A stretch of 32,000 nt of DNA from Candidatus Iainarchaeum sp. (GCA_030688545.1 JAUYHT010000002.1:330001-362000); one strand, 5' to 3'. Shown: positions 8,007 through 32,000, counted from the stretch's first letter. Numbers and translations: made by a program. The notes: generated from the sequence alone by a model not told the origin.

Positions 8007-8732
8007 TTATTCCAATATCTTCTTCAATTCCAGAAAATTTCTGATAACGTAATCAGGCTTTGAATCCCATGCAGAAGAAAATTCATTGTTTTTTGGATTA
8101 TACCAACAAGTCTGGAATCCTGCTTTCCGTGCGTTCATATCCCGTGGCGAATCTCCCACCATTAGAATATTTTGAGCTTTTATATGTGGAAATTCTTTCC
8201 GAATATTCTTTAGAAACAATCGAAAAATATGAACCCTGGATTTATCAGCGTTTACCTCACATGAAATGATTATGCGATGATCCGCAATTCCTAACTCATG
8301 TTTCTTAACCCAACGTCGACCCCAATTTACGAGGGAATCAGAAATAACTCCAGTAACAATCTCTTTACGCGCCAAAAAACGCATTAAATTCTTTACCCTA
8401 GGAGAAATCCGTCGAGGACTATGATCATTCTCCCGATGCGAATAGTGTGCATCCCGCATCATAGTGAAAACGGAACGAGAAGGAGGAATACCCAATAACT
8501 CCAGAACCTTCTCATCGTACCAAAAGAATCCTTTCTTGGCCCAAGATTTCTTGTGTTCAGTCCGAACCTTCTCCATCGCCGCATCAAAACGGGGTATTGA
8601 AACATCATAACCCAACGACCGAAGGACACGGACCTTTGCGGACCGCGCCCGGCGCTTGGACGCTTTCGTTTCGTGATACAAGGTTCCGTGAATATCAAAA
8701 GCGATACACTTTATAGGTGGTTTTTCCGCCAT
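8007..8732 (-). CDS. HAD-superfamily hydrolase
   Basis: Motif I is IAFDIHGTLY, with the second Asp replaced by His. Motif IV is MVGDSPRDMNARKAG. TATA-like TTTATTCG (reverse complement of 8754-8761) lies about 26 nt upstream of the ATG. Confidence 0.75.
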   Translation of the reverse strand: MAEKPPIKCIAFDIHGTLYHETKASKRRARSAKVRVLRSLGYDVSIPRFDAAMEKVRTEHKKSWAKKGFFWYDEKVLELLGIPPSRSVFTMMRDAHYSHRENDHSPRRISPRVKNLMRFLARKEIVTGVISDSLVNWGRRWVKKHELGIADHRIIISCEVNADKSRVHIFRLFLKNIRKEFPHIKAQNILMVGDSPRDMNARKAGFQTCWYNPKNNEFSSAWDSKPDYVIRNFLELKKILE

Positions 8733-8760: not shown

Positions 8761-8796
8761 ATGACTTCCCCCCTACTAAAAGGCCGAGGAACTCAA
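8761..8796 (+). repeat. Degenerate structured element unit
   Basis: ATGACTTCCCCCCTAC-TAAAA-GGCCGAGGAACTCAAG keeps the 5' box, the loop and the GGCCGAGG half, but the left stem arm is lost. It lies in the divergent HAD/Nudix promoter region. Confidence 0.5.
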
Positions 8797-8847
8797 GTTG
8801 GAAAAATATTCCATATTCTAATAAATCCTCCCTTCGTTTCATGTAGC

Positions 8848-9762
8848 ATGCAATCAGGAACCAAAATCCAAAATAAAAGAAAAAAAGCTGAAAAAAATAT
8901 TCCCACATCGATTGTTCTAGTCTTCGATCCGGATTTTAAACACATTTTAATGGTGAAGCGCGTAAAAAATTACTTTGGATTTGATTGGGGATATATAGCT
9001 GGAAAATCGGATAAGGGAGAAACGGCTCATGAAACGGCATCACGAGAAATGTGGGAAGAAATAGGCATCCGCCAATACCCCCAACATATCCATTCCTTAA
9101 GTGAATATGGAATAAAATCACCACCAGACCCATTTACGATATTTATTACATCCATCCCCAAAGAAATACCTCTAACTATCAAAGTAGATGAAATAAAAGA
9201 AGCCAAATGGTTCCCCATTCATAATCTTCCCGAAAGTCGACCAATGAGTGAGGATGCCGTTATCCAATCCATTATTTCAGTAGTAAAGTCCATCTTATTG
9301 CTACCCTATCGACAAAATGTCCAATTTTGGTGCTACCGCAAAGATGGAAAAATTCTCTTGCTGGATGAAAGCACCACGGATGAGGTATATTGGAAATTCC
9401 CCCAAGGAGGGATTGAATCCAATGAAACCCATGAAAAAGCCATTACACGTGAGTTGGAAGAAGAACTCAATATCAAAACATTTCAGATATTGTCCAAAGC
9501 GAAATACATCAACCGATACAATTGGCCACCTACCCTGCTAGTGAAAGGATTCCGCGGCCAAGAACAACACATTTATCTAGTATATTTACCCCATCCAAAG
9601 GAAGTCAAACCCAATAAAAAAGAAGGAATCAGACAAGCCAAATGGATGACTTTCCACGAAGCAATAAGCCACTTTCTCATTCCCAATCAAAAACTAGCCG
9701 CGGATAGAATATGGAAAGAATTCGAGCCAATCATCAAGAGGGTTGCGAAGCCTTTGCTTTAA
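8848..9762 (+). CDS. Tandem double Nudix hydrolase
   Basis: There are two Nudix boxes: GKSDKGETAHETASREMWEEIGI, and GGIESNETHEKAITRELEEELNI (with the final G replaced by N). TATA-like TAATAAAT (8819-8826) lies about 26 nt upstream of ATG 8848. The track start at 8761 is encoded by the repeat element and was rejected. Confidence 0.75.
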   Translation: MQSGTKIQNKRKKAEKNIPTSIVLVFDPDFKHILMVKRVKNYFGFDWGYIAGKSDKGETAHETASREMWEEIGIRQYPQHIHSLSEYGIKSPPDPFTIFITSIPKEIPLTIKVDEIKEAKWFPIHNLPESRPMSEDAVIQSIISVVKSILLLPYRQNVQFWCYRKDGKILLLDESTTDEVYWKFPQGGIESNETHEKAITRELEEELNIKTFQILSKAKYINRYNWPPTLLVKGFRGQEQHIYLVYLPHPKEVKPNKKEGIRQAKWMTFHEAISHFLIPNQKLAADRIWKEFEPIIKRVAKPLL

Positions 9763-10673: not shown

Positions 10674-11526
10674 ATGGAGGGATTTTCCTGATACCTGAAA
10701 CAGGTTCATTAGAGCTCTTGACGAGCCAGCCGAAGAATGCCAAGGGAGCGATTATTCAGAAGCTGGCTAAGCAATGGCCATTGACAGCCAAGGAGCTATC
10801 CAATATTCTCCAACGAGAATTTGCCCTACAAGTTACCTATCAGCGGTTCATAAAGCCCTTCAAGAGCTCGAAAGGGATCACGTAGTGGAAAAGAATGAGC
10901 ATGGATACCAATTTCACGAGAATTGGATCCAAAACGTCCTCAAAATATCCAACGCCATCGCCCAAAACTATTCCCGAAATGAGCCCTTGGATTTTGATAA
11001 AGACGTTATCCAGCTCCACTTTACCTCATGGTTGAATGCCGGCCGGTTTGGAAGTTTCACGTTTAAGAATGAATTTCCTAATCCGGAGCATAAACCCATC
11101 CTGTCCTGCTGGATGCATGTATGGCCCGTCAGCACGGTATCCGCGGAAGAAAGCAGGATACTATTAGAGCAATCCAAACGGGAAAAAGGGCTATTCTGCG
11201 TATGCCCTAACAATACGCCTCTCGATCAACTGTTTGCCGACTGGATTGGGAAACTCGGACGGAAGCATATTTTAGGAGTTGATATGAAATTAGACCATGA
11301 CTATGTCATCAAAGGAGATCACATCGCCCAGTTTTATTATCCCAAAAGCTTCTTGGAAAAGGTGGATTTATTCTACCGAGATAACACCGACATCAAAAAT
11401 ATCGATTATCAAAAACTACAAGAACTCGCCACTGAAAAGACAAATATTCATACAATTGTCATTCGAAATAAGGAACTAGCGGAAGCCAAAAGAAATGAAT
11501 TGCTGGAACTGTTTCAAAACCAGTAG
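10674..11526 (+). pseudogene. wHTH paralog P1, reading frame disrupted twice
   Basis: ATG 10674 reads MEGFS*. Family-like sequence then continues in the -1 frame (FLIPETGSLELLTSQPKNAKGAIIQKLAKQWPLTAKELSNILQREFALQVTYQ). At about 10843-10846 it shifts -1 again into the track ORF (AVHKALQELERD...). The family motif YQAVHK is split across the two frames. Confidence 0.6.
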
Positions 11527-11538
11527 AAAGGGTTAGAT

Positions 11539-12375
11539 ATGGAACGATACACCCAACTCCTAAAAAAGCCGCAAACCGCCAAAACCGCCATTATTCAATA
11601 TTTGGCCAGCGACTTTCCACACCCCATTAAAAAAATCCATCATATTTTACAACGGGAATATGGAATGGATATATCCTATCAAGCCGTGCACAAAGCCATA
11701 CAAGAACTAGAAGAAGAATCCATCCTCACTAAAAAAGATGGGCAATGGCAACTCAACCCCACCTGGTTGGATTCCCAGGAACGATTCATCCATCAAACAA
11801 AACAAAAATATCAAGGAAACAAAAACAAATACAACATCAACCTGAACTACGATGGGCCACAGGTATTTGAATTTGATAATTTTACGGACTTTTCAGTGGA
11901 GACGGCAAATCTAGTTGCTAAGCAGGTCTTGTATCAGAATGGAGAAAAAGCATACTACATTCTTGAGTATGGATACTGGCCACTAAAATTCAAATTTGAT
12001 CACTTGCATGTTATATACAATCTCGTAAAAAAGTCCCCTAATTCTATTTACATTATTCGAAAAGTAACTACGTATGGTAAATGGGTACAAAAACAATACT
12101 TGAGAGTTGGAGGAATTGGGATTATTGGATCAAAAATACCTATCGAAGACGACTTCTGGATTCAAGGAGAATGGATGGGACAGGTACATTTCCCTGCCGA
12201 ATCCAAAAAAATTATTGAACAATATTGGAATAAATGGAAAAATCTAGAGGATAGCTTCAAAGAACTCGGACTGAAAAAAGAGCCGAAAATGGTCATACTT
12301 GCTACCGTTACCAAAAACCCATCCATGGCAAGATTTTTGAGTAAGGAGATAGAGAAATACCTAGCAGCTGGGTAG
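11539..12375 (+). CDS. wHTH paralog P2 (N-terminal winged helix plus uncharacterised C-terminal domain)
   Basis: 278 aa. ISYQAVHKAIQELEEESILTKKDGQWQL forms the wHTH recognition and wing region. A WPLKF motif lies in the C-terminal domain. The gene starts 12 nt after P1. Confidence 0.75.
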   Translation: MERYTQLLKKPQTAKTAIIQYLASDFPHPIKKIHHILQREYGMDISYQAVHKAIQELEEESILTKKDGQWQLNPTWLDSQERFIHQTKQKYQGNKNKYNINLNYDGPQVFEFDNFTDFSVETANLVAKQVLYQNGEKAYYILEYGYWPLKFKFDHLHVIYNLVKKSPNSIYIIRKVTTYGKWVQKQYLRVGGIGIIGSKIPIEDDFWIQGEWMGQVHFPAESKKIIEQYWNKWKNLEDSFKELGLKKEPKMVILATVTKNPSMARFLSKEIEKYLAAG

Positions 12376-12770: not shown

Positions 12771-13253
12771 TTAAAATTTATCAATTGTTTCTCGGATTTT
12801 TGCCATTTTTGTGTGCGTATCAACTTTGAATCCATCTTCATTTTGTTTTGAAACCTCGATATTTTCTGTTAAAATATCAAGGGTGTTTTGATGGCCTTCC
12901 TTAATTGCTTTTCCCAAATTTTTTTTAAGTGCGATTGCAAATGTATTTGCTTTTTTTTCATCAAGAAAGTGTGCGATAATACTTGTTGGTGCTTGATTCA
13001 TGACTTCCAAAAATCCTTGCTTTGCAAATTGAAATCGATAAAAAAATTTCTCGCCGATAACATCTTGCCCCATATAATAAATTTTCTCTGATAAATCCTT
13101 GCTTAGAAAATCGATAAATTCAAACAAAGCATTCTGTGCCTTTTCCTGCTCACTCATTTGATCCCTGAAATTTAACTTCTCATTAATAGCCACAGAAAAA
13201 TTTAATGACTCAGGTAAATCTACAAGAGAAACCCAAACATGTTTTGTTTCCAT
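12771..13253 (-). CDS. Hypothetical protein
   Basis: 160-aa ORF. TATA-like TTTAAATA (reverse complement of 13275-13282) lies about 26 nt upstream of the ATG. No motif recognised. Confidence 0.55.
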   Translation of the reverse strand: METKHVWVSLVDLPESLNFSVAINEKLNFRDQMSEQEKAQNALFEFIDFLSKDLSEKIYYMGQDVIGEKFFYRFQFAKQGFLEVMNQAPTSIIAHFLDEKKANTFAIALKKNLGKAIKEGHQNTLDILTENIEVSKQNEDGFKVDTHTKMAKIRETIDKF

Positions 13254-13311: not shown

Positions 13312-14736
13312 CTAATGGTGAATCTGCGGTCGCGTTAATTGATGCAAATAATCATTCCCTTCATGAAACATTATGTCTAATTCTGTTGAATGTTTCATAC
13401 GTTTGATATGATGAGCATGCAAATATTCTTTCAAAACTTCTGATTCGTCTTCTGTGTAAACAACGGTAACAAGACGATGGTTTTTTCCAGCAGACATATT
13501 TAGCTCGTTCACAGCACTGGAATAATTTTCGGATTGTTTGACAGTGAGTAAATAGCAGGAAAATTCAGTCGATAAAAATTCAGAAAAAATATCATTTGTT
13601 TTAAATAAAAGCGGTGAGGATTGAGATTCACTTAAAAAGTCACCCGAAAACTTTTGCAATTGATTTAAGCTTGATAATTCATTGCAACGTTTTCCTACCA
13701 TGGATAAAATTTCTGGGTTTACATTTCCTACCTTTGTTTTCTTATTCATTGGGTCACCAACCCATTTTCCATAACTTTCAAATTTTTCTATTAATAATGG
13801 CATTAATTCTGAATTCTTTCCCGAAGCATCAAATATCGATTTCAATGCATTACAACCAATTGGCCAAGTTAAAGAAGATTCAACAGCAAGGTCGACTGTT
13901 TTTCTAATATCGGCAGAGCTTGCACAAATTGAAGCTGTACGTCCTGTTGTATGCTTCAATACAATTTTATCTGAAAAATGATCAACTTTGTGATCGCCAT
14001 TAATTTCCCACCGGAGTAAATTTTCAACTACCCCATTATCCCCAAAAGCCCAAATTGCAGACGATGAATCTACAAGGTCAAAGTGTATTTTTCCTTTGCT
14101 TTGGTTGTTCGTGTCCCAATTTACAACATGTAAAGCTTCTTTAGGATACCCACATTGAATTAGTGTCTGTATTGTTTTGGAGGCAATTGGAAAATCTGTT
14201 TTTGAAGGTTTAAAAATCCCTGGCAATCCCAATGAAATTAACCATGCAGCAACAAAACTTGTTACTCGGGGGTCATTTCCAGGAGTTACAACATAAACAT
14301 ACCCGGAAATGGGATGCATGTACTTAAACATGGGATGGCCTTCAATCGGATTTCGTCCGATTTTACCGTTATTGATACCAATTCGTTTCCGGATGAGATC
14401 TGGTATGATTTTGAATATTTTCTCAACCTCATTCAACTGATCTTTGACGGCGGTTATTGGCATTCCTGATAATTTAACCCATGATTCAATTTCATCGTCT
14501 GTAAATTTTATTTTTCGACTAGCTTCATACAAAATATTTGAACGCTCCTCAAATGGCATTTGCGCCAAAGTAGCAGTAGACGAGCGTGCTTTTGAAATTG
14601 CAGTTTTGGCATCAAGTACTCCCGCGTTTGGTACCTCGATTACAAAACCAGGATCATAAAAAGATTGGATTGGAAAATAAGCTTTAGTTAGGCTGATGCT
14701 ACTTCCACCAATTAAATTTTCAAATTTTAGACGCAT
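13312..14736 (-). CDS. LuxC-like acyl-CoA/acyl-protein reductase (aldehyde dehydrogenase superfamily)
   Basis: 474 aa. YVVTPGNDPRVTS, IFKPSKTDFP, IWAFGDNGVVENL, PIGCNALKSIF (candidate catalytic Cys) and C-terminal HEGNDYLHQL parallel LuxC segments (AGNVPLSG, IIKTSSTDP, VAWGG, RACFSAQNIY, HDGMRPLQRL). The classical ALDH ELGG Glu appears to be replaced (LKHTTGR). Confidence 0.65.
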   Translation of the reverse strand: MRLKFENLIGGSSISLTKAYFPIQSFYDPGFVIEVPNAGVLDAKTAISKARSSTATLAQMPFEERSNILYEASRKIKFTDDEIESWVKLSGMPITAVKDQLNEVEKIFKIIPDLIRKRIGINNGKIGRNPIEGHPMFKYMHPISGYVYVVTPGNDPRVTSFVAAWLISLGLPGIFKPSKTDFPIASKTIQTLIQCGYPKEALHVVNWDTNNQSKGKIHFDLVDSSSAIWAFGDNGVVENLLRWEINGDHKVDHFSDKIVLKHTTGRTASICASSADIRKTVDLAVESSLTWPIGCNALKSIFDASGKNSELMPLLIEKFESYGKWVGDPMNKKTKVGNVNPEILSMVGKRCNELSSLNQLQKFSGDFLSESQSSPLLFKTNDIFSEFLSTEFSCYLLTVKQSENYSSAVNELNMSAGKNHRLVTVVYTEDESEVLKEYLHAHHIKRMKHSTELDIMFHEGNDYLHQLTRPQIHH

Positions 14737-14760
14737 ATAACCACAATCTCAACTATCTTC

Positions 14761-14768
14761 ATTTAAAA
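14761..14768 (-). promoter_or_regulatory. TATA box candidate for the LuxC-like gene
   Basis: The reverse complement TTTTAAAT is centred about 28 nt upstream of ATG 14736. Confidence 0.4.
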
Positions 14769-14872
14769 GGCCATAAAAAATGGAAGATTGTTTCAAAAAA
14801 TCACTTAAAATATTGGAATACTTTCGTCTTATGACGAAAATAGCGTTGCCAAAATACTCAAAATGAATTTAG

Positions 14873-14880
14873 CTATAAAT
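14873..14880 (+). promoter_or_regulatory. TATA box candidate for the aminotransferase gene
   Basis: CTATAAAT is centred 26-27 nt upstream of ATG 14903. Confidence 0.4.
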
Positions 14881-14902
14881 AAATCACACATAAAAAAATC
14901 AC

Positions 14903-16051
14903 ATGAACCAAGCAATCAAAAGGATGAGTCGCAGTCCAATGATGGATTTTTTTGGAAAAGTTCCCAAAAATTGTATTAATTTATCAGTAGGCGAGCCATT
15001 ATTTGATACTCCTAAAAGAATCACAGATTTTGAAATTGATTCTTTAATCCAAGGAGCAAATAGATATACACCAGTAAAAGGCTTTTTGGAGTTGCGTGAA
15101 AAACTTGCTTCTAAATTAGCAAAAGATAATCATATAATAACCCAACCAAAAGATATTGTTGTAACATGCGGAAGTTCTGAAGCAATTGGACTCACAATAC
15201 AATCAACACTTAATTTAGGTGACAACGCAATAATTATTGATCCACATTTTCCCATCGTAGCTCCGCAAATAGAATTTACCGGGGGCATTGTAAAAAGACT
15301 GTCTTTAATGGAAAAGGATCATTTTCAACCAGACATAGACTTGCTCAATAAAATGATTGACAAAAAGACAAAATTAATTTACATGAACACTCCCCACAAT
15401 CCAACTGGAAGCGTATTTTCAAAAAATAGTATTTTAGAAATAATTGATATTGCCATCAAAAATGATATTTATTTGATTTCAGATGAAGTATATGAAAAAA
15501 TTATATATTCTGATAAACATCACTCGCCTGCAAGTCTTTCTAACTATCCTAAAATAATAACTGTAAATTCTTTTTCTAAATCTTACTCTATGTGCGGCCA
15601 TCGTGTTGGTTATGTGGTTACAAACAGCGACTTGATTGATAACATTGAAAAACTTAAATTTTCGTTGTCAGTGTCAACGCCAAACAGTTCCCAAAAAGCA
15701 GCCATTTGTGCATTAGATTCAGATAAAGAGTCCAACGAAATGGCAAAATTATACAAGAAACGTAGAGATATTATAGCAAATACAATTGGTAAACTTGGGC
15801 TTGACTTTGTCCTTCCAAAAGGGGCGTTCTACTTTTTTATCAATGTTAAAAGATTTGGTGGGGGGCAAAAGGTTTACGAAATGTTGCTAAAAAACAATAT
15901 TGTTGTCTTACCTGGAATTATATTTGGTAAGGCGTACTCAGACTATATTCGAATTAGCTATGTCCTGAATGAAGCAGGTCTAGAAAAAGCTATGCAAAAG
16001 TTTACAGAAATTATTAGCCAATACAACAGCCATTCTGAATTATTTCGTTAG
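14903..16051 (+). CDS. Class I/II PLP-dependent aminotransferase (AspC-like)
   Basis: NLSVGEPLFDTP, NTPHNPTGSVFS and the PLP-lysine motif SFSKSYSMCGHRVGY are all present in a 382-aa ORF. Confidence 0.9.
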   Translation: MNQAIKRMSRSPMMDFFGKVPKNCINLSVGEPLFDTPKRITDFEIDSLIQGANRYTPVKGFLELREKLASKLAKDNHIITQPKDIVVTCGSSEAIGLTIQSTLNLGDNAIIIDPHFPIVAPQIEFTGGIVKRLSLMEKDHFQPDIDLLNKMIDKKTKLIYMNTPHNPTGSVFSKNSILEIIDIAIKNDIYLISDEVYEKIIYSDKHHSPASLSNYPKIITVNSFSKSYSMCGHRVGYVVTNSDLIDNIEKLKFSLSVSTPNSSQKAAICALDSDKESNEMAKLYKKRRDIIANTIGKLGLDFVLPKGAFYFFINVKRFGGGQKVYEMLLKNNIVVLPGIIFGKAYSDYIRISYVLNEAGLEKAMQKFTEIISQYNSHSELFR

Positions 16052-17183
16052 GAACATCGATTCGGTCGATATCTGTTATAATGGGGCTTTTTCTTCCGCA
16101 AGAACATTCCATATCACCTAAAAATTTTACGGAATCTCCAGGGGCGTAACGAATATATCTTGTCCCTTCTCTTGCAAGTGTTGTGTAAATCAGAATTCCC
16201 CTTTCATTTTTCTTTACTGGAACCATTGTCCCGCTTTCATACTTTACTATCTCAACAAAATGAGGGCCGTAGTTTAAATGCATGTTATTGTATTTACAAA
16301 ACCTGGAATCTCCCCCAATAGTACTAGATGCTTGTGGTATTGCCTCGCTGGAGCCCAACGTTGTTGCCAATTTCTTATTATACGCTTCAGACCAATTAAT
16401 TACTTCATCGATTAATTTATACCCTGTGATAAAGTAAGTATTCACAGTACTCTCTAAAATATCTTGCCCCTCATCTACCAATGCAACAAAATCCACACCA
16501 CCGCCTTTCTTTGTATTATCTCCATCAGGAGACAATGGACCTTGTACAGTCGCCAACACATTTACAGAATAATCCCTTATTGTATTAATTATATCCGAAG
16601 CGGTGTCAGTTGTCCGCCTTGGAATAAACTGCATTTGCAAAATTGTTGACGCCTCCTTAATTATTTCACCACCTTTGTGTGTTGGATTGTAGGTTGAAAG
16701 GATCGTATCCCCTTTTTTCATGCCCATGGCAGAGAAACAACGAGCTAAACCATACGATTCTACTTTTCTATCATTTTGAGTAATAAAGGTTGGAGTTGCA
16801 ACACCCTTCGTCCCTCCACTTTTGTAAATAAATGAATGTGGTAACCCATGTGGTGCCATGGATAATGGATTTTTGGCAACTTTATTGCGAAATCCGATAG
16901 TGTCAACGGAAGTATCTTTTACCAGTATTGGCAAACGATAAAAGTCATCGATAGAATTCAACTTCAAATTGGGAGAATATCCACCATAAATTTCTGGCAT
17001 TAATTCTCTTGCTTCATTTACCGTGGTTATTAATAGGCTAAAAAATAAATTAGCCGCTTTTTTTGTTGATAGTTTATCCCACTCTGGAAGAAACCATGCG
17101 CTTATTGGAATACTATTGGCAGAGGTTATTCGCCCTGATTCAACCTCGGAGACGATTTCCTTAAAGGAGTTTAACCCAGACAT
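16014..17183 (-). CDS. LuxE/PaaK-like acyl-adenylate-forming enzyme (acyl-protein synthetase-like)
   Basis: A P-loop-like AMP motif YKSGGTKGVATP and RYAPGDSVKF...CSCGRKSPIITDIDRID resemble the PaaK / coenzyme F390 synthetase / LuxE group. The protein stops soon after the hinge, so it has no ANL C-terminal domain, and ends in NGCCIG. GTG 17192 is an alternative start. The 3' end overlaps the aminotransferase 3' end by 38 nt. Confidence 0.75.
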   Translation of the reverse strand: MSGLNSFKEIVSEVESGRITSANSIPISAWFLPEWDKLSTKKAANLFFSLLITTVNEARELMPEIYGGYSPNLKLNSIDDFYRLPILVKDTSVDTIGFRNKVAKNPLSMAPHGLPHSFIYKSGGTKGVATPTFITQNDRKVESYGLARCFSAMGMKKGDTILSTYNPTHKGGEIIKEASTILQMQFIPRRTTDTASDIINTIRDYSVNVLATVQGPLSPDGDNTKKGGGVDFVALVDEGQDILESTVNTYFITGYKLIDEVINWSEAYNKKLATTLGSSEAIPQASSTIGGDSRFCKYNNMHLNYGPHFVEIVKYESGTMVPVKKNERGILIYTTLAREGTRYIRYAPGDSVKFLGDMECSCGRKSPIITDIDRIDVPNEIIQNGCCIG

Positions 17184-17191
17184 TATTACCA

Positions 17192-18523
17192 CTACTTAGA
17201 AATCTCATGAAGCATTTTTGAATATAGCACAAAGATGTCGGCATTTAAGTGATGAAAGCCAGTACCCCCACCTGGTTTTGATCCTATTTCACCAAAAGAA
17301 GAAAAGCCAATAATTGGCGCCCTGAATTTCTTTTTTAAAGATTTAAGATCTTCTACCACATTTTCCTTCAAGACAACCCGACAGGATGCACATAAAATTG
17401 CCAAACAAAATGCCGCGGGACCTGTTTCAGAAGTATATTCCATTATATCTTTTGCAACTTCTGCAGGAGCTGAAACTACGTTTTTAGGATCTGCATCCAT
17501 TATGTACACGGGCCACCCTTCGATGAAGGGCGCTGTAAATGCCATAAAGTCCCCATTTGGTACTCCTCCTGCACGGATTACATAGTTACCATAAAGATCT
17601 GGAACACCTAATGGTTTAAGCTGTGTTAATTCTAAATAGTTTTTAACAAACTTTTCCTTTGAAATGCCGAGCTGTTCTGCATACCAATCAACGGGTTTTT
17701 TTCCTGAAATACTGGTGACAACATAACCACCTTTATCAACTCCAGAAATATAACCAAATTTATTTAGCCGTTTAGCACCATGCGCCATGGACAAACCATA
17801 CAAATGACTACATACGTTAACCGTTATTATTAAGCCATCCTTTAGTACTTTTCCAGAGTGAAGAGAATAGATATCATAAGGCTTGCCAGTAAAAAGCTTC
17901 TCAAGTTCTACACCAAAACTTCCACCGTAAATGGGTACATCGAGGCCGACTTCATCTGAAATTCCATTAATAATTTTCATTTCTTCCCCCATTTGTGGCA
18001 GCTTCATTCCACGAGAGAACGCAAAGACAAAAAATGAAGGAATTTTAACCATCCATTTTACATGAGCATTCTTCATTCGAGTAAATTGTAGATATGGATC
18101 TACAAACTTGTCTATGGAAAGTTTTTCCAACGCTTTTGAAACTGCTTCACGGGCTGCTTCACGGGGACTTTTCGAAACATTATCAATCGATGCAACTCCA
18201 ACATGAAGATAATCACTTTGAATTGAGGCGACAACAATTCCTTTCCTAAACATTTTTTCTTCAAAATAAACAGCGTCTGCACTTCCTCCAACAAACTCTG
18301 TACCACCTAAAACCGACATAAGACCTTCGTTAAGTTTATTTGGATCGTAATCTCCTGCAAAGAATACATATGTTATTGTTGGCGCTTTCCCTTTTAGTGG
18401 TGCTATAGCAGACATAGCAGCTTCTTTGGCGGCTTTTACTGGATCACTAGAGATGCTATAACCTGTTCCAACAGTTAACGCACTTTCTTTTTCCTTCATA
18501 ATATTTTTGCCAGCTGTTCGCAT
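17192..18523 (-). CDS. FIST-domain sensory protein (FIST_N plus FIST_C)
   Basis: The N-terminus (SDPVKAAKEAAMSAIAPLKGKAPTITYVFFAGDYD...LGGTEFVGGSADA) and C-terminus (PIIGFSSFGEIGSKPGGGTGFHHLNADIFVLY) fit the FIST_N and FIST_C patterns. ATG 18523 lies 4 nt after the V4R stop. The track start at 18592 overlaps the V4R gene. Confidence 0.75.
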   Translation of the reverse strand: MRTAGKNIMKEKESALTVGTGYSISSDPVKAAKEAAMSAIAPLKGKAPTITYVFFAGDYDPNKLNEGLMSVLGGTEFVGGSADAVYFEEKMFRKGIVVASIQSDYLHVGVASIDNVSKSPREAAREAVSKALEKLSIDKFVDPYLQFTRMKNAHVKWMVKIPSFFVFAFSRGMKLPQMGEEMKIINGISDEVGLDVPIYGGSFGVELEKLFTGKPYDIYSLHSGKVLKDGLIITVNVCSHLYGLSMAHGAKRLNKFGYISGVDKGGYVVTSISGKKPVDWYAEQLGISKEKFVKNYLELTQLKPLGVPDLYGNYVIRAGGVPNGDFMAFTAPFIEGWPVYIMDADPKNVVSAPAEVAKDIMEYTSETGPAAFCLAILCASCRVVLKENVVEDLKSLKKKFRAPIIGFSSFGEIGSKPGGGTGFHHLNADIFVLYSKMLHEISK

Positions 18524-18527
18524 TTTT

Positions 18528-19127
18528 TCACCACCAGAAATGTCCACGTTGATTAGGCTGACTAACCGCGAGCTGGTATTTAAACAAGTCACTATTCTTA
18601 TCGAAAGTCTCCCTTTTTTTAATCAAAAATGAACACTCTTTATCTCCCGAAGCTAAACATTGGTGTTCCAAGGCTTCAATATTTGGTTCATTGAATAGTA
18701 AAGAAAATGCCCCAGCCAGCATGCCCCTCGCGACGTGATCGACCGGGTGTTTTGTCTTTCCGTAATTTGAGGCGACAGCCGAACCATCCAAACTAACAAT
18801 AGCTTGCATTTTTGCAAAATCGATTGAATCAATATTGTATATTCCATCTCCATGAGAATTCAGTAAATTAAATATCAGGCCCATATATTCTGTTCGATTC
18901 ATTGAAACTCCCGCCTTTAATGTATTTGAGAAATTTTTAAATCCTACATCTTTACTTACATTGTAAATTTGTTGTGGAAGCTGATTATCTACCTGCTGTT
19001 GTAAGTTAGATATCAAACTGGAAGGCATCATTACAAATCGATCATTAAAAAATGATATATTTCCCTTTTCAAGTTTCAATTGTTTGACAAGCATCATTTT
19101 AGAAATAAAGTCGTATGTCATAACCAT
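18528..19127 (-). CDS. V4R-domain small-molecule-binding protein
   Basis: The C-terminal HQCLASGDKECSFLIKK matches the V4R Cys-x-Gly-x-Cys-x-Phe signature. Size is about 200 aa. The ATG overlaps the KaiC-like stop (TGATG). Confidence 0.7.
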   Translation of the reverse strand: MVMTYDFISKMMLVKQLKLEKGNISFFNDRFVMMPSSLISNLQQQVDNQLPQQIYNVSKDVGFKNFSNTLKAGVSMNRTEYMGLIFNLLNSHGDGIYNIDSIDFAKMQAIVSLDGSAVASNYGKTKHPVDHVARGMLAGAFSLLFNEPNIEALEHQCLASGDKECSFLIKKRETFDKNSDLFKYQLAVSQPNQRGHFWW

Positions 19128-19885
19128 CAAAGCTTGTTAACTAAGTCGGTGCTTTCTTGCAACTCAATTCCCTTACTAGTTATAATATAGTCAAGTGTGT
19201 GAAAGCCATGATCAGTGTACCTCATTTTCCTTACCTTTAATGTCCGAAATTTTGTTCCTTCCAGAAAATGCAGTGTCACCACACCATCAACTATAAATTC
19301 ACTCACTCCATCAGTGGAAAAACCTACATCTCCTTCATGTAATTCGGAAGTGAATATTACAGTTGTTCCAAATTCTTTGAACTTGTTTAGTACATTATAA
19401 AGAATAATTTTGGTTACAATTTGTTCAGTACGTTGTATAGGAGATACAGTGTCTACAATGTTTATCATTGAAAATGCTTTATCCTTTTGTAATTCACCTA
19501 GCATCAACGAATCTGTAAGAGTAGTCATTGAGTCAATGACAATTCTTTTAGGTTGAAATGTTTTAACTAATTCTTCAATTTTTGTCAGAAAGTGATCTTC
19601 TTCCAAGACTTTAAAGAAGATAATTCTGAGTAAATTCCGATTTTCTAGATCTACCAGATTCCATCCAAATTGAGACGCTGATTTCTGCAATTCTTCTTCG
19701 GACTGCTCAGTCGAGATATATAATCCTTTTTCCCCATATAGGGTGGCCCCATTAACAAGATACTGTAAGGAGATAGTAGATTTCCCAGTCCCAGCCCCCC
19801 CAGAAAGTAGTACGAGGTTCCCTTCGGGAAATCCCCCATTGAGGGCTTTGTCCAACCCCTGGATGCCAGTCTTGCTGCGTTGCAT
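19127..19885 (-). CDS. Single-domain KaiC-like (RecA-superfamily) ATPase
   Basis: GIQGLDKALNGGFPEGNLVLLSGGAGTGKST (Walker A) and RIVIDSMTTL (Walker B) are present. At 252 aa it has the typical archaeal KaiC-like layout. Confidence 0.9.
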   Translation of the reverse strand: MQRSKTGIQGLDKALNGGFPEGNLVLLSGGAGTGKSTISLQYLVNGATLYGEKGLYISTEQSEEELQKSASQFGWNLVDLENRNLLRIIFFKVLEEDHFLTKIEELVKTFQPKRIVIDSMTTLTDSLMLGELQKDKAFSMINIVDTVSPIQRTEQIVTKIILYNVLNKFKEFGTTVIFTSELHEGDVGFSTDGVSEFIVDGVVTLHFLEGTKFRTLKVRKMRYTDHGFHTLDYIITSKGIELQESTDLVNKL

Positions 19886-19914: not shown

Positions 19915-19965
19915 GGGATTGCCCGGATAGCTAAACGTGGATTTAAAACCTCTTAAAAGTTGGTT

Positions 19966-20829
19966 ATGTTTATGGATACATCGGGTGGGATACCTTTTGG
20001 AGGTAGCGGGCAGCGCGTTCGCGACCAGGTTTTAGTAATCTTAAGTGAGGAATTTCCTCTGACGGTAAAAGAATTGTTTAATCGCATATCGCGCCAAGGA
20101 CATGAAATTACATATCAGGCTGTTCACAAAGTTGTCAATCAACTGATGGATGAAGGAATAACGGAGAAAAAAGGAAAAGGTGTTCAATTAAGTCAAAGTT
20201 GGATTCACAAGGTAAAAGAATATGCGTTTAATGTCGATACTATATATACCAAAGGAAAACAATACAAACTACCCCGCTTCTTCGAGAAACCATACACGAT
20301 TGTGTTCGACGACTTTTCAACGTATGTTGTTTGGATCGCAGAAAATCTTCGCGACGGAAAATTCTCACAGGGAAAGACGGGCATAGTATATGGAATGTTT
20401 TATCACGCCCCATGGCCTTTGCGCTTTAATTTTTCTGATTTTGAATTGTTAAGGCAAATGGCCACCAAATGCCATGCAATTGGAATTTCGGCATGTGATA
20501 TGCCTTTTGATCGGTGGGTTGCTACTCACTTTAAGCTTGGTGGAGTAAAACAATTCAAAACAGGAATGAAAACCAAAATAAAAGAAGATTATTACGTGAC
20601 TGAGGATGTTGTGGTTCGTGTGAAGTTTTCTCCTGAAACGATTGCATTTCTCGACAAGATCTATTCTAAAATTCATGATTTAAAGGATCTTTTTCACTTT
20701 TACCTAGTTGAATTAGAACGAAAAGCCCCAATTCATATTGAATTAACAGCTGAGCGAAATCCCATGTTGGCAAAAATGATTGAAAACCAAATCAAACAAT
20801 ACCTAAACGAAACGGAGAAAGGAAAATGA
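19966..20829 (+). CDS. wHTH paralog P4
   Basis: ITYQAVHKVVNQLMDEGITEKKGKGVQL wHTH motif and APWPLRF in the C-terminal domain. The track start TTG 19960 and ATG 19972 are alternatives. Confidence 0.75.
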   Translation: MFMDTSGGIPFGGSGQRVRDQVLVILSEEFPLTVKELFNRISRQGHEITYQAVHKVVNQLMDEGITEKKGKGVQLSQSWIHKVKEYAFNVDTIYTKGKQYKLPRFFEKPYTIVFDDFSTYVVWIAENLRDGKFSQGKTGIVYGMFYHAPWPLRFNFSDFELLRQMATKCHAIGISACDMPFDRWVATHFKLGGVKQFKTGMKTKIKEDYYVTEDVVVRVKFSPETIAFLDKIYSKIHDLKDLFHFYLVELERKAPIHIELTAERNPMLAKMIENQIKQYLNETEKGK

Positions 20830-21686
20830 GCACGCAAAAATTAACTTCGATTCCCTTTATCGGTGGCCAAGGTTCTACGCGCGATGAAATCTTAGCCATT
20901 TTGAGCGAAGAGTTTCCCTTTTCCGCCAAGGAAATTTATGCCCGTGTCAAACGACAGGGAAGAAATGTTTCCTATCAAGCGGTTCATAAAACGCTCCAAT
21001 CCTTGATCGAACAGCGTGTGCTGGAAAAACAAAATTCCACATATCTCATCCAGAAAGAATGGATTACCAACATCCGGGATCATTTGACTATATTGGAACA
21101 TCAATATCAGGAAAAACCTTCGGCCAAAAAAGTGTTAGAGGAAGCCAAAAAAACCACCGTCAAACTTCACTTTTCGAGTTTAACGACAATGAGTGTTTTT
21201 ACTGCCGAATTGTTGGGTTTGTATCGTGAACAAACTAAAAGACCAGTTCCCCATTTCGCATTTTTGCGTCATGCATGGTGGCCATTGAAATTCGAACCAT
21301 CCCAATATTTTTTATTCAAGCGAATGGACGATAATAATCCTAATAATCGAGTCGTCGTCATCAAAAACGATCCCTTCGATAAGTGGATCGTTCGATACTA
21401 CATGCTTGTGAATAGTTCGAATAGGTTGCGATTCGAAGAAAAAGCAAAATGGGAGGAAGACTTGATTGTAAAAGGGGACTTGGTTTTGCAAACACGATAT
21501 TCCAAAGAAACGTTAAAACGCATGGATGACATCTACCAAAAAATATCCGGACTGACTGAATTATTCGACACATATTTTGTGAACATAGGAAAAGACGAAG
21601 GATTTGATATAGACATTACCATATCACACAATCCGACTATGGCAAAACTCATTACGGAGAAAATTAAAGGCTATTTTGGCGAATAA
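20826..21686 (+). CDS. wHTH paralog P5
   Basis: VSYQAVHKTLQSLIEQRVLEKQNSTYLI wHTH motif and AWWPLKF in the C-terminal domain. It shares an ATGA overlap with P4. Confidence 0.75.
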   Translation: MSTQKLTSIPFIGGQGSTRDEILAILSEEFPFSAKEIYARVKRQGRNVSYQAVHKTLQSLIEQRVLEKQNSTYLIQKEWITNIRDHLTILEHQYQEKPSAKKVLEEAKKTTVKLHFSSLTTMSVFTAELLGLYREQTKRPVPHFAFLRHAWWPLKFEPSQYFLFKRMDDNNPNNRVVVIKNDPFDKWIVRYYMLVNSSNRLRFEEKAKWEEDLIVKGDLVLQTRYSKETLKRMDDIYQKISGLTELFDTYFVNIGKDEGFDIDITISHNPTMAKLITEKIKGYFGE

Positions 21687-31700: not shown

Positions 31701-32000
31701 CAAACACCCCGTCGTTGTTGTAGTCATAGCAGAGCATATCGGTGGATTCGCGCAAATTATAGGTAACGGGCCGGACTTTCGTGGAGGTGAAGGCAACTTG
31801 ATCCAAGTTCGTGCTTGTACCATTACTGGTAGCGGCGTCCCAGGTATCATAATTTAGAATGAAAGGGGAGTAGGAGGCGGGGGCCATACAGTGAGATTGG
31901 GTGGGGGTATCGTAGACGCAATAGCGGGATTGACACTGGGAATCCAGCGCACACAAACTTCCATTGGGAAGGCCGGTGGAACATTGATTGTTGATGCAGG
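28777..32000 (-). CDS. Giant Cys-rich surface protein, 5' end outside window
   Basis: The frame stays open to the window edge (...CINNQCSTGLPNGSLCALDSQCQSRYC...). It has Cys-rich modules and several carboxypeptidase-regulatory-like beta-sandwich repeats (for example DADGKFVF). Hydrophobic segments lie at about 29815-29895 and 29560-29640, followed by a C-terminal soluble region of about 300 aa. Confidence 0.8.
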   Translation of the reverse strand, partial: CINNQCSTGLPNGSLCALDSQCQSRYCVYDTPTQSHCMAPASYSPFILNYDTWDAATSNGTSTNLDQVAFTSTKVRPVTYNLRESTDMLCYDYNNDGVFDACYYDPLGCGGSGCASTSCNSFSIPNSVSAGKKYSCILDDYFGCLTGVDVPDQICTGAGCVVDTAFPSHREARVKAYYDCDNSDGLRAEHTILNSPPNEPRDDYWVVNPKFNYCESQTQPEREYWVLGAFGPNYSDIKTVNGPISCQSGTSCSILADEQYISTPGGSIPSACKTNPGGSCTQNSNCLYNACQGNICQDGFIYEAFLIDELSNPLSNYTINLTTCSDSLVTSAVTDADGKFVFAAGASNYKMKLVVPWGEMLFDTGPNDCSPFGTGFLGGNIWQFHETTVVQGKAITPQGNPSPGLPFDLGACTDNTLITNTTSNSFGDFLLQSPSDRYRLNVTLNDARISLTDTQNNACFLFYGELDLGEMELVNDCSLYNNSCYLGDYRLNSCSFDPENGCTCSIQYCEAGCSEGAPQCNLVGTGTIHAIVMDSNSPIRNAPIYLNNSLSGKTDGKGKHDINKKHGSYTLTAACPDGSSPTTKPIFLGGNHAYGYFDLDNCPVQEKGDLLIRAENVNGYPVANVVVEIDGDEIGYTNGFGQLYIKDLDFGSREVRAIYKITNEVGTGAYQIYSLADVNQSEVVLTLSILKPSDPGFGGQAYTGNVLFIPAAVVIVAPFALAAIDAISVAWSTQDLCTCILDYDYTLNELGQCMADFVTPTCQDIRTCENGLTKWGDEINNGKCWAESIFLAGDVASPLIPVGLIGHAGLFLLNKVPDFKILDRLAEGSKVLQKGVDFIEYQLSNGKLIRGEIVDASAQTIKRGPAVGVKIANLTDEGILSAERVVQKHGPGGENALKSLINRTDGDFTITKEYMEDTFNGLGKIKQGGLPGIELAKVEKKLAHDVKGGNFGNIKGILGEIEVGAKPEFVSQLAEFQYRPPGAVSPVEWKLLNGDLVEVKTTNMLTTTYANYIEKIEDIGKKVNDWSTHAPSAKINIRFTKPINNEVKNDIMAEIVKAAPGININMITIVGYG

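What the first reader, a model, noticed from the sequence alone, without database searches (positions are those of the whole stretch)
13312..17183. LuxE-like synthetase, LuxC-like reductase and aminotransferase: a candidate carboxylate to aldehyde to amine route
The 392-aa adenylating enzyme lacks the ANL C-terminal domain and ends in NGCCIG. In luminous-bacterial LuxE the acylated Cys has been reported close to the C-terminus.

The 474-aa ALDH-superfamily protein shares LuxC-type segments (K-x-S-x-TD, AWGG-like, a Cys loop, H-D/E-G near the C-terminus). It lacks the classical ALDH general-base Glu context.

A LuxE/LuxC-type pair reduces an activated acid to an aldehyde. The class I aminotransferase inserted convergently between them could then aminate that aldehyde. 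The substrate is unknown, and the FIST/V4R sensors in the same block may sense it.

The two converging genes overlap by 38 nt at their 3' ends (16014-16051).
Basis: inference. Interest (0 to 1): 0.68.

Follow-up and report, generated by a model that had tools for sequence, protein, structure and literature searches.

The report
LuxCE-like acid-to-aldehyde enzyme pair, DPANN
This archaeal locus most likely encodes an uncharacterised two-protein machine that uses ATP and NAD(P)H to turn a carboxylic acid into an aldehyde without coenzyme A, like the LuxE/LuxC pair of luminous bacteria, and it is always encoded next to FIST, V4R and KaiC-like proteins.

Summary
The 392-aa protein is a PaaK-fold adenylating enzyme with no ANL C-domain. 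It ends in a flexible tail whose Gly-Cys (G388-C389) is invariant in 65 of 65 relatives. The 474-aa protein has a full ALDH fold, with the catalytic Cys and oxyanion Asn, but His replaces the general-base Glu. No partner reductase in 22 loci has Glu there.

The two genes sit together in every locus with enough DNA, and they co-vary (r = 0.89). This supports a LuxE/LuxC-type, CoA-independent reduction of acid to aldehyde.

Neither protein is a formal Lux family member. No synthetase relative matches Pfam LuxE (0 of 31). The window reductase scores below the LuxC cut-off.

The aminotransferase step is weakly supported. The gene is present only in this sublineage. It is an ordinary Asp/aromatic class I transaminase, whereas the documented aldehyde-aminating precedent uses a class III enzyme.

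In archaea the conserved module is p160, FIST, synthetase, reductase, V4R and a KaiC-like ATPase. The single invariant Cys of the FIST protein aligns with FBXO22 Cys326, which binds aldehydes, so FIST may receive the product. This is a new variant of a known kind. The substrate is unknown.

The parts
16014..17192 (-). Acyl-protein-synthetase-like adenylating enzyme (392 aa). It has a PaaK-fold N-domain only, a P-loop YKSGGTKG (123-130), K229 (codon 16506-16508), R377 (16062-16064), a putative Cys/His metal site (C299, H305, C363, C365), and a flexible C-terminal tail 386-392 with invariant G388-C389 (C389 codon 16026-16028).
13312..14736 (-). ALDH-superfamily thioester-reductase candidate (474 aa). 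It has catalytic C295 (codon 13852-13854), oxyanion N154, H262 in place of the general-base Glu (codon 13951-13953), K179 where NAD-specific ALDHs have Glu195, E391, and the C-terminal motif HEGNDY.
14903..16051 (+). Class I (Asp/aromatic-type) PLP aminotransferase, inserted convergently between the two enzymes. It is a lineage-specific accessory gene, shared only with L024.
17192..18592 (-). FIST_N + FIST_C protein. The likely true start is the ATG at 18523, giving 443 aa. It is translationally coupled to the synthetase. It has a single invariant Cys (C401 in the 466-aa ORF numbering, C378 from M24) and an invariant Glu (E435/E412), which align with FBXO22 C326 and E362.
18528..19130 (-). Small V4R-domain protein, a conserved cluster member. 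V4R domains are thought to bind hydrophobic ligands.
19127..19885 (-). Single-domain KaiC-like (RecA-superfamily) ATPase. It is the first gene of the minus-strand operon here and a conserved cluster member.
12771..13253 (-). p160, a conserved protein of about 150 aa with unknown fold. It lies downstream of the reductase, or upstream of FIST in other loci.
16014..16051 (.). The 38-nt convergent overlap of the synthetase and aminotransferase 3' ends. It includes the codons of the invariant GCCIG tail.

Best explanation
The 392-aa and 474-aa proteins form a two-component, CoA-independent carboxylic-acid reductase that works like LuxE/LuxC. The steps below are inferred unless marked as shown. (1) The PaaK-fold synthetase adenylates a carboxylic acid, probably a small hydrophobic or aromatic one. 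K229 on a mobile loop and R377 would stand in for the catalytic Lys/Arg that full-length ANL enzymes take partly from their C-domain. (2) The acyl group moves to Cys389 on the enzyme's own flexible C-terminal tail, which replaces CoA or phosphopantetheine. (3) The tail delivers the acyl group to Cys295 of the ALDH-fold partner. (4) NAD(P)H reduces that thioester to the free aldehyde. The partner cannot hydrolyse the thioester because the general-base Glu is replaced by His. What is shown here: the architecture, the residue conservation, the predicted flexibility of the tail, strict gene pairing and co-variation. In DPANN archaea the pair is embedded in a conserved module with a FIST protein, a V4R protein, a KaiC-like ATPase and p160, which most likely sense or handle the substrate or product. 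In this sublineage an Asp/aromatic aminotransferase is an add-on. It more plausibly connects the pathway to an amino acid/2-oxo acid pool than aminates the aldehyde.
For: Synthetase. It is about 390 aa in 84 homologues, and all of them end about 15 residues after the hinge Arg with no ANL C-domain. The AlphaFold model has pLDDT 88.3, and the tail 386-392 is below 50, meaning flexible. Its fold matches the PaaK family, including C-domain-less EhpF. Across 65 sequences, G388-C389 is 65 of 65, R377 63, K229 59 (plus 3 Arg) and D353 65. This parallels LuxE Lys238/Arg355/Cys364 and its tail TRxxKGCxLS (PMC9157457). Reductase. The model has pLDDT 92.2 and an ALDH fold with TM about 0.8. C295 is invariant. 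N154 and E391 are retained. His262 aligns with the general-base Glu. That position is never Glu in 22 partner reductases; it is His, Tyr or Phe. LuxC Pfam hits occur in 18 of 23 relatives, best 1.7e-11. Pairing. The two genes occur together in 19 of 19 informative loci in the survey, and also in L024, L025 and L026, across DPANN phyla, Elusimicrobia, Parachlamydiales and unbinned metagenome contigs. Tail type co-varies with reductase active-site type, and the distance matrices correlate at r = 0.894. Precedents: LuxCE; adjacent ehpF/ehpG, AMP-binding plus ALDH; ALDH-like thioester reductase TabE.
Against: There is no biochemical evidence and the substrate is unknown. The synthetase does not match Pfam LuxE. 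The window reductase is below the LuxC gathering score, resembles ordinary ALDHs more in fold and profile, and keeps the oxyanion Asn that LuxC lacks. TabE shows that presence or absence of the Glu does not strictly dictate direction, since TabE keeps Glu yet reduces thioesters. The co-variation is confounded by shared phylogeny.
Confidence: 0.6

Rival explanations
1. Full three-step route: the acid is reduced to an aldehyde by the pair, and the embedded class I aminotransferase converts that aldehyde to an amine.
For: The aminotransferase sits between the two genes and has been retained in the same place in L024 at 62% identity, the same divergence as the rest of the cluster. PLP enzymes recur near the cassette elsewhere: a class I/II aminotransferase in L005 and L015, SHMT in L005 and L006, a class III aminotransferase in L008 and L026. 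Acid/thioester to aldehyde to amine logic is documented (TabE/TabA).
Against: An aminotransferase homologue is near the cassette in only about 4 of 21 loci, in different positions and from different subfamilies (21-31% identity outside L024). The window enzyme is a typical Asp/aromatic alpha-amino-acid transaminase (1dju, 1gd9, Thermus AspAT). The documented aldehyde-aminating precedent uses a class III omega-transaminase. It is transcribed from the opposite strand.
Confidence: 0.1
2. [quoted passage not shown] The tail Cys would be structural or redox-related.
For: The closest solved and named relatives are phenylacetate-CoA ligases. LuxC itself also accepts acyl-CoA. Non-hydrolysing ALDHs without the Glu include CoA-acylating enzymes (established knowledge).
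Against: In ANL enzymes the C-domain is what binds phosphopantetheine and performs the thioester half-reaction (my recollection of the EhpF structure paper, which I did not re-read; established ANL mechanism), and here it is absent in every member. A Gly-Cys that is invariant in 65 of 65 sequences, on a disordered tail a fixed distance after the hinge Arg, is hard to explain as structural.
Confidence: 0.1
3. Reverse flow: the ALDH-like protein oxidises an aldehyde to an enzyme thioester, passes it to the synthetase tail, and the synthetase runs backwards (acyl-S-enzyme + AMP + PPi gives acid + ATP). That would be CoA-free substrate-level phosphorylation in energy-poor DPANN cells.
For: The same residues suit either direction: a non-hydrolysing ALDH with an acyl-transfer partner. 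My recollection is that AMP-forming acyl-CoA synthetases can run in reverse in some anaerobes. I did not check this.
Against: All characterised precedents for this architecture run in the reductive direction (LuxCE; TabE; I recall the same being proposed for EhpF/G but did not re-read that paper). K179 at the ALDH Glu195 position suggests NADP(H), which is typical of reductive use (inference). The cassette also sits in apparently biosynthetic contexts (L026, O-methyltransferase fusions).
Confidence: 0.07
4. The synthetase is an ester- or amide-forming ligase like NatL2, ClxA or AjiA1. It would transfer the adenylate directly to a small-molecule or protein nucleophile, possibly on FIST or p160, and the ALDH-like protein would act on a different substrate.
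For: Several top structural neighbours are CoA-independent PaaK-family ligases of benzoxazole pathways.
Against: Those enzymes keep the C-domain (about 400-436 aa) and lack the GC tail. Strict adjacency and co-variation with a Cys-containing, non-hydrolysing ALDH points to a thioester hand-over.
Confidence: 0.08

Closest known systems
LuxE/LuxC fatty-acid reductase of luminous bacteria (PMC9157457)
   Same: The synthetase is an ANL enzyme without the C-terminal subdomain. It has a short, flexible C-terminal tail with a conserved Gly-Cys after a conserved Arg. An internal Lys plus the hinge Arg are candidates for adenylation. The partner is an ALDH-superfamily protein with a catalytic Cys and no hydrolytic Glu. 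The genes are paired. The chemistry is acid + ATP + NAD(P)H giving an aldehyde without CoA.
   Different: The synthetase does not match the LuxE Pfam model (0 of 31) and is closer to PaaK. The reductase matches generic Aldedh better than LuxC, has the ordinary ALDH three-domain fold, and retains the oxyanion Asn that LuxC lacks. The hosts are DPANN archaea and assorted uncultured bacteria. There is no luciferase or LuxD. The substrate is unlikely to be myristate. The pair is associated with FIST, V4R and KaiC-like genes.
EhpF/EhpG of D-alanylgriseoluteic acid (phenazine) biosynthesis
   Same: An AMP-binding enzyme of about 350 aa that lacks the C-domain is encoded next to an aldehyde dehydrogenase family protein. 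EhpF is a structural neighbour. From my memory of the EhpF structure paper, the pair was proposed to reduce a carboxylate to an aldehyde.
   Different: The sequence relationship is distant (E about 0.01 to the family profile). I did not check whether EhpF has a GC tail or whether EhpG lacks the Glu. It sits in a bacterial secondary-metabolite cluster.
PaaK-family aryl-acid adenylating enzymes (BT_0428, PaaK1/2, ClxA, NatL2, AjiA1)
   Same: These are the best fold and profile matches to the N-domain. They share the CxCGR motif and Cys/His motifs.
   Different: They have the C-terminal domain with the catalytic Lys, and they use CoA or form esters or amides. They have no GC tail and no obligatory ALDH partner.
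TabE/TabA (tambjamine BE-18591) and carboxylic acid reductases paired with omega-transaminases
   Same: An ALDH-like enzyme reduces a thioester to an aldehyde, and a transaminase then makes an amine.
   Different: The acyl carrier is an ACP, not a synthetase tail. TabE keeps the Glu. The transaminase is class III, not class I.
FIST domain of human FBXO22
   Same: The FIST_C Cys and Glu of the cluster FIST protein align with FBXO22 Cys326 and Glu362. Cys326 forms a reversible hemithioacetal with aldehydes.
   Different: The alignment is weak (E = 0.9). The dyad is generic to bacterial FIST_C domains. FBXO22 is an F-box E3 ligase subunit, and no natural aldehyde ligand is known for it.

Membership tests
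LuxE acyl-protein synthetase (Pfam PF04443) | Sequence match to the LuxE family model at or above its gathering score | tested here: not met
   No hit for the window protein even at E <= 10. 0 of 31 family members hit at E <= 1. Only 2 of 10 wider-clade proteins give sub-threshold 15-bit hits.
LuxE acyl-protein synthetase (Pfam PF04443) | ANL N-domain without the C-terminal subdomain | tested here: met
   All homologues end about 15 residues after the hinge Arg. The model and Foldseek alignments cover only PaaK N-domains.
LuxE acyl-protein synthetase (Pfam PF04443) | Conserved Cys on a short flexible C-terminal tail (LuxE Cys364 in TRxxKGCxLS) | tested here: met
   G388-C389 is invariant in 65 of 65 sequences. 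Tail pLDDT is below 50. The LuxE motif is from PMC9157457.
LuxE acyl-protein synthetase (Pfam PF04443) | Internal Lys plus hinge Arg replacing the PaaK Lys422/Arg326 pair | tested here: inconclusive
   K229 (59 of 65, plus 3 Arg) and R377 (63 of 65) are conserved. Their position at the active site could not be measured because no model coordinates were available.
LuxE acyl-protein synthetase (Pfam PF04443) | ATP-dependent self-acylation and acyl transfer to the reductase | not testable with these tools
   This needs biochemistry.
LuxC acyl-CoA/acyl-protein reductase (Pfam PF05893) | Sequence match to the LuxC model at or above its gathering score | tested here: not met
   The window protein scores 13.2 bits against a cut-off of 21 (E = 0.041). 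The family as a whole is borderline: 18 of 23 relatives hit at E <= 1, best 1.7e-11, but Aldedh scores higher in all of them.
LuxC acyl-CoA/acyl-protein reductase (Pfam PF05893) | Catalytic Cys present and ALDH general-base Glu absent | tested here: met
   C295 is invariant. H262 aligns with the Glu of AEMGGK in 3rjl. The position is never Glu in 22 partner reductases.
LuxC acyl-CoA/acyl-protein reductase (Pfam PF05893) | Loss of the ALDH oxyanion Asn as well (reported for LuxC) | tested here: not met
   N154 in TPGNDP aligns with the Asn of PWNF/PFNY and is nearly invariant. The LuxC statement is from PMC9157457.
LuxC acyl-CoA/acyl-protein reductase (Pfam PF05893) | Structure closest to LuxC | tested here: not met
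   The top 50 Foldseek PDB matches are ordinary ALDHs (TM about 0.8), and LuxC is not among them.
Aldehyde dehydrogenase superfamily (Pfam PF00171) | Family model match and three-domain ALDH fold | tested here: met
   60.6 bits against a cut-off of 23. Foldseek E about 1e-28, TM 0.76-0.85.
Aldehyde dehydrogenase superfamily (Pfam PF00171) | Hydrolytic general-base Glu (Glu268 in ALDH2 numbering) of aldehyde-oxidising members | tested here: not met
   His262 occupies that position.
Phenylacetate-CoA ligase PaaK (TIGR02155 / NF041878) | Equivalog score, and a C-terminal domain carrying the catalytic Lys | tested here: not met
   26.7 bits against 646 and 44.5 against 700. Matches cover only the end of the N-domain. 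The C-domain is absent.
Class I/II aminotransferase (Pfam PF00155) | Family model match, with closest relatives being alpha-amino-acid transaminases | tested here: met
   219 bits. The best PDB matches are aromatic AT and AspAT at about 1e-68. It is below the archaeal AspAT equivalog cut-off (302 against 550).
FIST sensor domain (PF08495 + PF10442) | FIST_N and FIST_C model matches, and the conserved FIST_C Cys...GE motif | tested here: met
   57.4 and 56.3 bits. The Cys is present in 19 of 19 cluster FISTs and 65 of 69 generic FISTs.
Known anti-phage defence systems (PADLOC) | Any component model match | tested here: not met
   There was only a marginal KaiC/mad8 hit at E = 4e-4, and nothing for the other seven proteins.

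The most novel reading that the evidence does not exclude
The module is an aldehyde-based sensing or hand-over circuit. The synthetase-reductase pair converts a carboxylate into a reactive aldehyde. The translationally coupled FIST protein captures it as a hemithioacetal on its single invariant Cys (C401, homologous to FBXO22 Cys326, with E435 homologous to Glu362). The V4R protein and the KaiC-like ATPase then transduce or gate the signal. If this is right, the conserved Cys-Glu dyad of FIST_C domains in general would be an aldehyde/electrophile receptor. That would give FIST its long-missing ligand chemistry and would explain why human FBXO22 can be drugged with aldehydes.
Probability: 0.15. 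Interest if true: 0.85.

Novelty: new variant of a known kind. Interest (0 to 1): 0.57.

Why it matters
If the mechanism holds, there is a broad, unnamed clade of 'GC-tail' acyl-protein synthetases paired with non-hydrolysing ALDH-fold reductases. At least 46 clusters at 50% identity are among the top 150 hits. That would make LuxCE-type, CoA- and phosphopantetheine-free carboxylate reduction a widespread strategy and not a bioluminescence speciality. Such pairs could be useful as simple two-protein biocatalysts for making aldehydes. The cluster is also one of the few conserved multi-gene modules in genome-reduced DPANN archaea. It links an enzyme pair to FIST, V4R and KaiC-like proteins whose ligands and outputs are unknown, so it offers a concrete, testable entry point into FIST function and KaiC-like signalling in archaea.

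Tried and rejected
- **Assembly-truncated PaaK:** rejected. 84 homologues have the same length and tail.
- **Formal LuxE membership:** rejected.
- **LuxC as nearest structure or sequence in the PDB:** not found in three searches. I could not obtain LuxC or LuxE sequences for a direct profile-profile comparison.
- **p160 as a split-off ANL C-domain:** there is no Pfam match, including no AMP-binding_C, and p160 is absent from bacterial loci that keep the pair. I consider this unlikely.
- **Defence system:** there are no PADLOC matches.
- **Riboswitch or other structured RNA as a ligand clue:** there are no Rfam hits and no tRNAs.
- **Literature on a FIST/V4R/KaiC/ALDH cluster in DPANN:** nothing found.
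- **FIST Cys as cluster-specific:** rejected. It is generic to FIST_C.
- **Technical failures:** the first related-loci run with the divergent alignment failed and was repeated with a narrower one. Model coordinates are not exposed to scripts, so distances from K229, R377 and C389 to the P-loop could not be measured.

Full report
**1. What is in the window**

On the minus strand there is a tightly packed run:

| Coordinates | Strand | Product |
|---|---|---|
| 19127-19885 | - | KaiC-like ATPase |
| 18528-19130 | - | V4R protein |
| 17192-18592 | - | FIST_N+FIST_C protein (probable true start ATG 18523) |
| 16014-17192 | - | 392-aa adenylating enzyme |
| 14903-16051 | + | class I aminotransferase (convergent) |
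| 13312-14736 | - | 474-aa ALDH-like protein |
| 12771-13253 | - | 160-aa protein, here called p160 |

Pfam confirms KaiC, V4R, FIST_N/FIST_C, Aminotran_1_2 and Aldedh. The 392-aa protein and p160 have no Pfam match.

The synthetase ends in QNGCCIG*. Its 3' end overlaps the aminotransferase 3' end by exactly 38 nt, and that overlap contains the codons of the tail. The block is AT-rich (GC 0.33-0.39). Its closest homologues come from DPANN archaea.

**2. The 392-aa protein**

It belongs to a family of 84 detectable homologues of about 385-425 aa. They are mostly from Micrarchaeota, Iainarchaeota/Diapherotrites, Woesearchaeota, Aenigmatarchaeota and Norongarragalinales, with a few bacterial MAGs (Parachlamydiales, Elusimicrobia).

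All members stop about 15 residues after the ANL hinge Arg, so none has the ANL C-terminal domain. All end in a Gly-Cys tail: GCCIG, GCCVG, GCAAG, GCRYC and similar.

The AlphaFold model is confident (pLDDT 88.3, pTM 0.89), except for a loop at 226-228 and the tail 386-392, which have pLDDT below 50.

The profile search and Foldseek both place it in the PaaK family. Matches include BT_0428 (8.9e-18 and 1.8e-18), ClxA, PaaK1/2, HCL, NatL2, AjiA1, and the C-domain-less EhpF.

It is not a Pfam LuxE member. There is no hit at E <= 10 for the window protein, and 0 of 31 relatives hit.

An exhaustive profile search of 1.84 billion representatives gave 40 clusters at E <= 1e-30 and 352 at E <= 1e-10. 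Among the top 150, 46 complete proteins plus 9 fragments end in '...CxCGR...R-x(9-12)-GC-x(0-6)', while 67 are full-length PaaK-sized proteins without that tail.

Conservation across 65 tail-bearing sequences:

| Residue(s) | Conserved in (of 65) |
|---|---|
| G388-C389 | 65 |
| D353 | 65 |
| R377 | 63 |
| K229 | 59 (plus 3 Arg) |
| C299 / H305 / C363 / C365 | 61-64 |

The LuxCE cryo-EM paper (PMC9157457) describes the same logic for LuxE: no C-subdomain; a flexible C-terminal motif of about 20 aa, TRxxKGCxLS, carrying the acylated Cys364; and a Lys238/Arg355 pair replacing PaaK1 Lys422/Arg326. The architecture is therefore LuxE-like, while the sequence family is a separate, unnamed PaaK-derived clade. 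The best NCBIfam match is the DVU_1553 family, far below its cut-off.

**3. The 474-aa protein**

It matches Pfam Aldedh (60.6 bits). LuxC is only sub-threshold (13.2 bits against a cut-off of 21). Among 23 relatives, all hit Aldedh and 18 also hit LuxC, with a best E-value of 1.7e-11.

The model (pLDDT 92.2) superposes on ordinary three-domain ALDHs at TM about 0.8, but with only 15-18% identity. LuxC is not in the top 50.

A full-length profile alignment to P5CDH (3rjl) fixes the register:
- N154 aligns with the oxyanion Asn.
- K176 aligns with Lys192, and K179 sits where NAD-specific ALDHs have Glu195.
- H262 aligns with the general-base Glu ('KivlrHasGr' against 'KQVIAEMGGK').
- C295 aligns with the catalytic Cys.
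- E391 aligns with Glu399.

In all 22 partner reductases examined, the Cys is invariant and the general-base position is never Glu. It is His, Tyr or Phe.

The enzyme can therefore form a thio(hemi)acetal or thioester on Cys and bind NAD(P)(H), but it lacks the residue that hydrolyses the thioester. That fits a thioester-to-aldehyde reductase or acyl-transferring enzyme, not an aldehyde-to-acid dehydrogenase. One caveat: TabE retains the Glu yet reduces thioesters, so this residue is suggestive, not decisive.

**4. Gene neighbourhoods**

I examined 26 loci, about 23 of them non-redundant.

The synthetase and the ALDH-like gene occur together in every locus with enough DNA: 19 of 19 in the survey, plus L024, L025 and L026. 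They are normally adjacent on the same strand with overlapping or near-abutting ends. The exceptions are:
- a gene of about 325 aa of unknown function between them in L003, L009, L012, L014 and L017;
- an inverted reductase in L016;
- the convergent aminotransferase in the window and L024.

Even distant tail-bearing synthetases are followed by an Aldedh/LuxC gene (P0159 and P0191, E about 1e-24 to 1e-47 to the profile).

Tail type and reductase active-site type co-vary. GCC[IV]G, GCAAG or GCMCSIG tails go with His262 and HEGNDY. GCRxx and other tails go with Tyr/Phe262 and pHQ. The pairwise distance matrices correlate at r = 0.894 over 231 pairs. Shared phylogeny contributes to this correlation.

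In archaea a FIST gene lies immediately upstream of the synthetase in 17 of 17 loci. V4R, KaiC-like and p160 homologues are present in about 15-16 loci (p160 homology). In Elusimicrobia the FIST gene follows the reductase (L022).

**5. The aminotransferase**

A homologue lies within 9 kb of the cassette only in the window, L024, L015 and L005. Only the L024 copy is orthologous (62% identity, same position). The others are 21-31% identical and sit elsewhere.

The window enzyme is closest to P. horikoshii aromatic aminotransferase/AspAT and Thermus AspAT (E about 1e-62 to 1e-69). These are enzymes of alpha-amino acids and 2-oxo acids. The documented acid/thioester to aldehyde to amine pathway uses a class III omega-transaminase (TabA).

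The proposed amination step is therefore weakly supported. Two points remain in its favour: the gene has been retained between the two enzymes across about 35-40% sequence divergence, and assorted PLP enzymes recur near the cassette in bacteria (L005, L006, L026) and in L008. This leaves a link to amino-acid-derived substrates open.

There are also weak hints that at least part of the wider clade handles small aromatic acids:
- two tail-bearing synthetases are fused to small-molecule O-methyltransferase domains;
- several PaaK-family fold neighbours were solved with aryl-acid ligands bound (phenylacetyl adenylate, 3-amino-4-hydroxybenzoate, salicylate);
- V4R domains are thought to bind hydrophobic ligands.

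**6. FIST**

The cluster FIST proteins have exactly one invariant Cys (C401 in ORF numbering) and an invariant Glu in 'GEIG'.

A profile of 19 cluster FISTs reaches only FBXO22 in the PDB (E = 0.9). The local alignment puts C401 on FBXO22 Cys326 and the Glu on Glu362. Cys326 forms a reversible hemithioacetal with alkyl and aryl aldehydes, and Glu362 is proposed to keep it reactive (PMC13316043).

The dyad is generic in bacterial FIST_C domains (65 of 69 and 63 of 69). It is therefore not special to this locus. What the locus provides is a natural context in which a FIST protein is translationally coupled to a probable aldehyde-producing enzyme pair. This is the basis of the 'novel case', and it is speculative.

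**7. Conclusion**

The best-supported reading is a LuxCE-type, CoA-independent carboxylate reductase made of a PaaK-derived 'GC-tail' acyl-protein synthetase and a non-hydrolysing ALDH-fold reductase. In DPANN archaea it is embedded in a conserved module of p160, FIST, V4R and a KaiC-like ATPase. My confidence is about 0.6.

It works like LuxE/LuxC and probably like EhpF/EhpG, but it fails the formal sequence-membership tests for both Lux families. I class it as a new variant of a known kind.

The substrate, the direction of the reaction, and the roles of FIST, V4R, KaiC-like and p160 remain untested.

No defence-system match, structured RNA or tRNA was found in the window. I found no publication describing this cluster.

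Noticed in passing
window 10774-11526(+), 11539-12375(+), 19960-20829(+), 20826-21686(+); L003 2-6047 (7 copies); L001, L011, L014: Arrays of paralogous proteins of about 250-290 aa flank the cluster on both sides here and in several related loci. They have an N-terminal winged-helix (weak FUR/HTH_12 hit) and an uncharacterised C-terminal domain. They may be the transcriptional output of the module, or an unrelated expanded DPANN regulator family.
   Followed up: partly
window 12771-13253(-): p160 is a conserved protein of about 150 aa with no Pfam match. It always accompanies the archaeal cluster, either downstream of the reductase or upstream of FIST, and is absent from the bacterial loci. 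Its fold and role are unknown.
   Followed up: partly
window 17192-18592(-), residues C401 and E435; alignment A5: The FIST_C Cys...GE dyad aligns with FBXO22 Cys326/Glu362, the aldehyde-reactive site. It is conserved in 65 of 69 and 63 of 69 generic bacterial FIST proteins, which suggests a family-wide Cys-based ligand chemistry.
   Followed up: partly
window 16014-16051: The 38-nt convergent overlap with the aminotransferase gene encodes the invariant GCCIG tail of the synthetase, so both genes constrain this stretch.
   Followed up: yes
window 18523-18592: The mechanical FIST ORF (GTG 18592) overlaps the V4R gene by 65 nt. Homologue lengths (431-456 aa) and the alignment favour the ATG at 18523, which gives 443 aa and places the start at the V4R stop codon (18528-18530).
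   Followed up: partly
window 21819-27392(-): A 1857-aa secreted-looking protein with S8 subtilase, CARDB and DUF2341 domains lies in a region of GC 0.49-0.57, against 0.33-0.39 for the neighbouring cluster. This sharp compositional shift could indicate horizontal acquisition.
   Followed up: no
window 28777-31956(-): A 1059-aa protein with CarboxypepD_reg-like/Ig-like repeats, also in GC-richer DNA (0.47-0.51). It is probably a surface protein.
   Followed up: no
window 8761-9762(+): A 333-aa protein with two NUDIX domains in tandem, next to a HAD hydrolase (8007-8732).
   Followed up: no
P0178 (722 aa), P0196 (697 aa): Natural fusions of a small-molecule O-methyltransferase (Methyltransf_2 plus its dimerisation domain) to a GC-tail synthetase. 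This hints at aromatic or phenolic acid substrates in part of the wider clade.
   Followed up: partly
L003 9194-10171; also L009, L012, L014, L017; L008 6424-8004, L011, L013: Sporadic extra genes sit inside the cassette. One is a 325-aa protein with no Pfam match, between the synthetase and the reductase. The other is a 526-aa protein with an N-terminal Rossmann fold (precomputed Pfam hit PF27054, Beta_methylindole_red_C), between FIST and the synthetase.
   Followed up: no
L026 1-13182: A distant GC-tail synthetase/ALDH pair sits in what looks like a biosynthetic cluster: ApbA-like reductase, KAS-III, radical SAM/SPASM, class I/II, III and V aminotransferases, and PALP.
   Followed up: no
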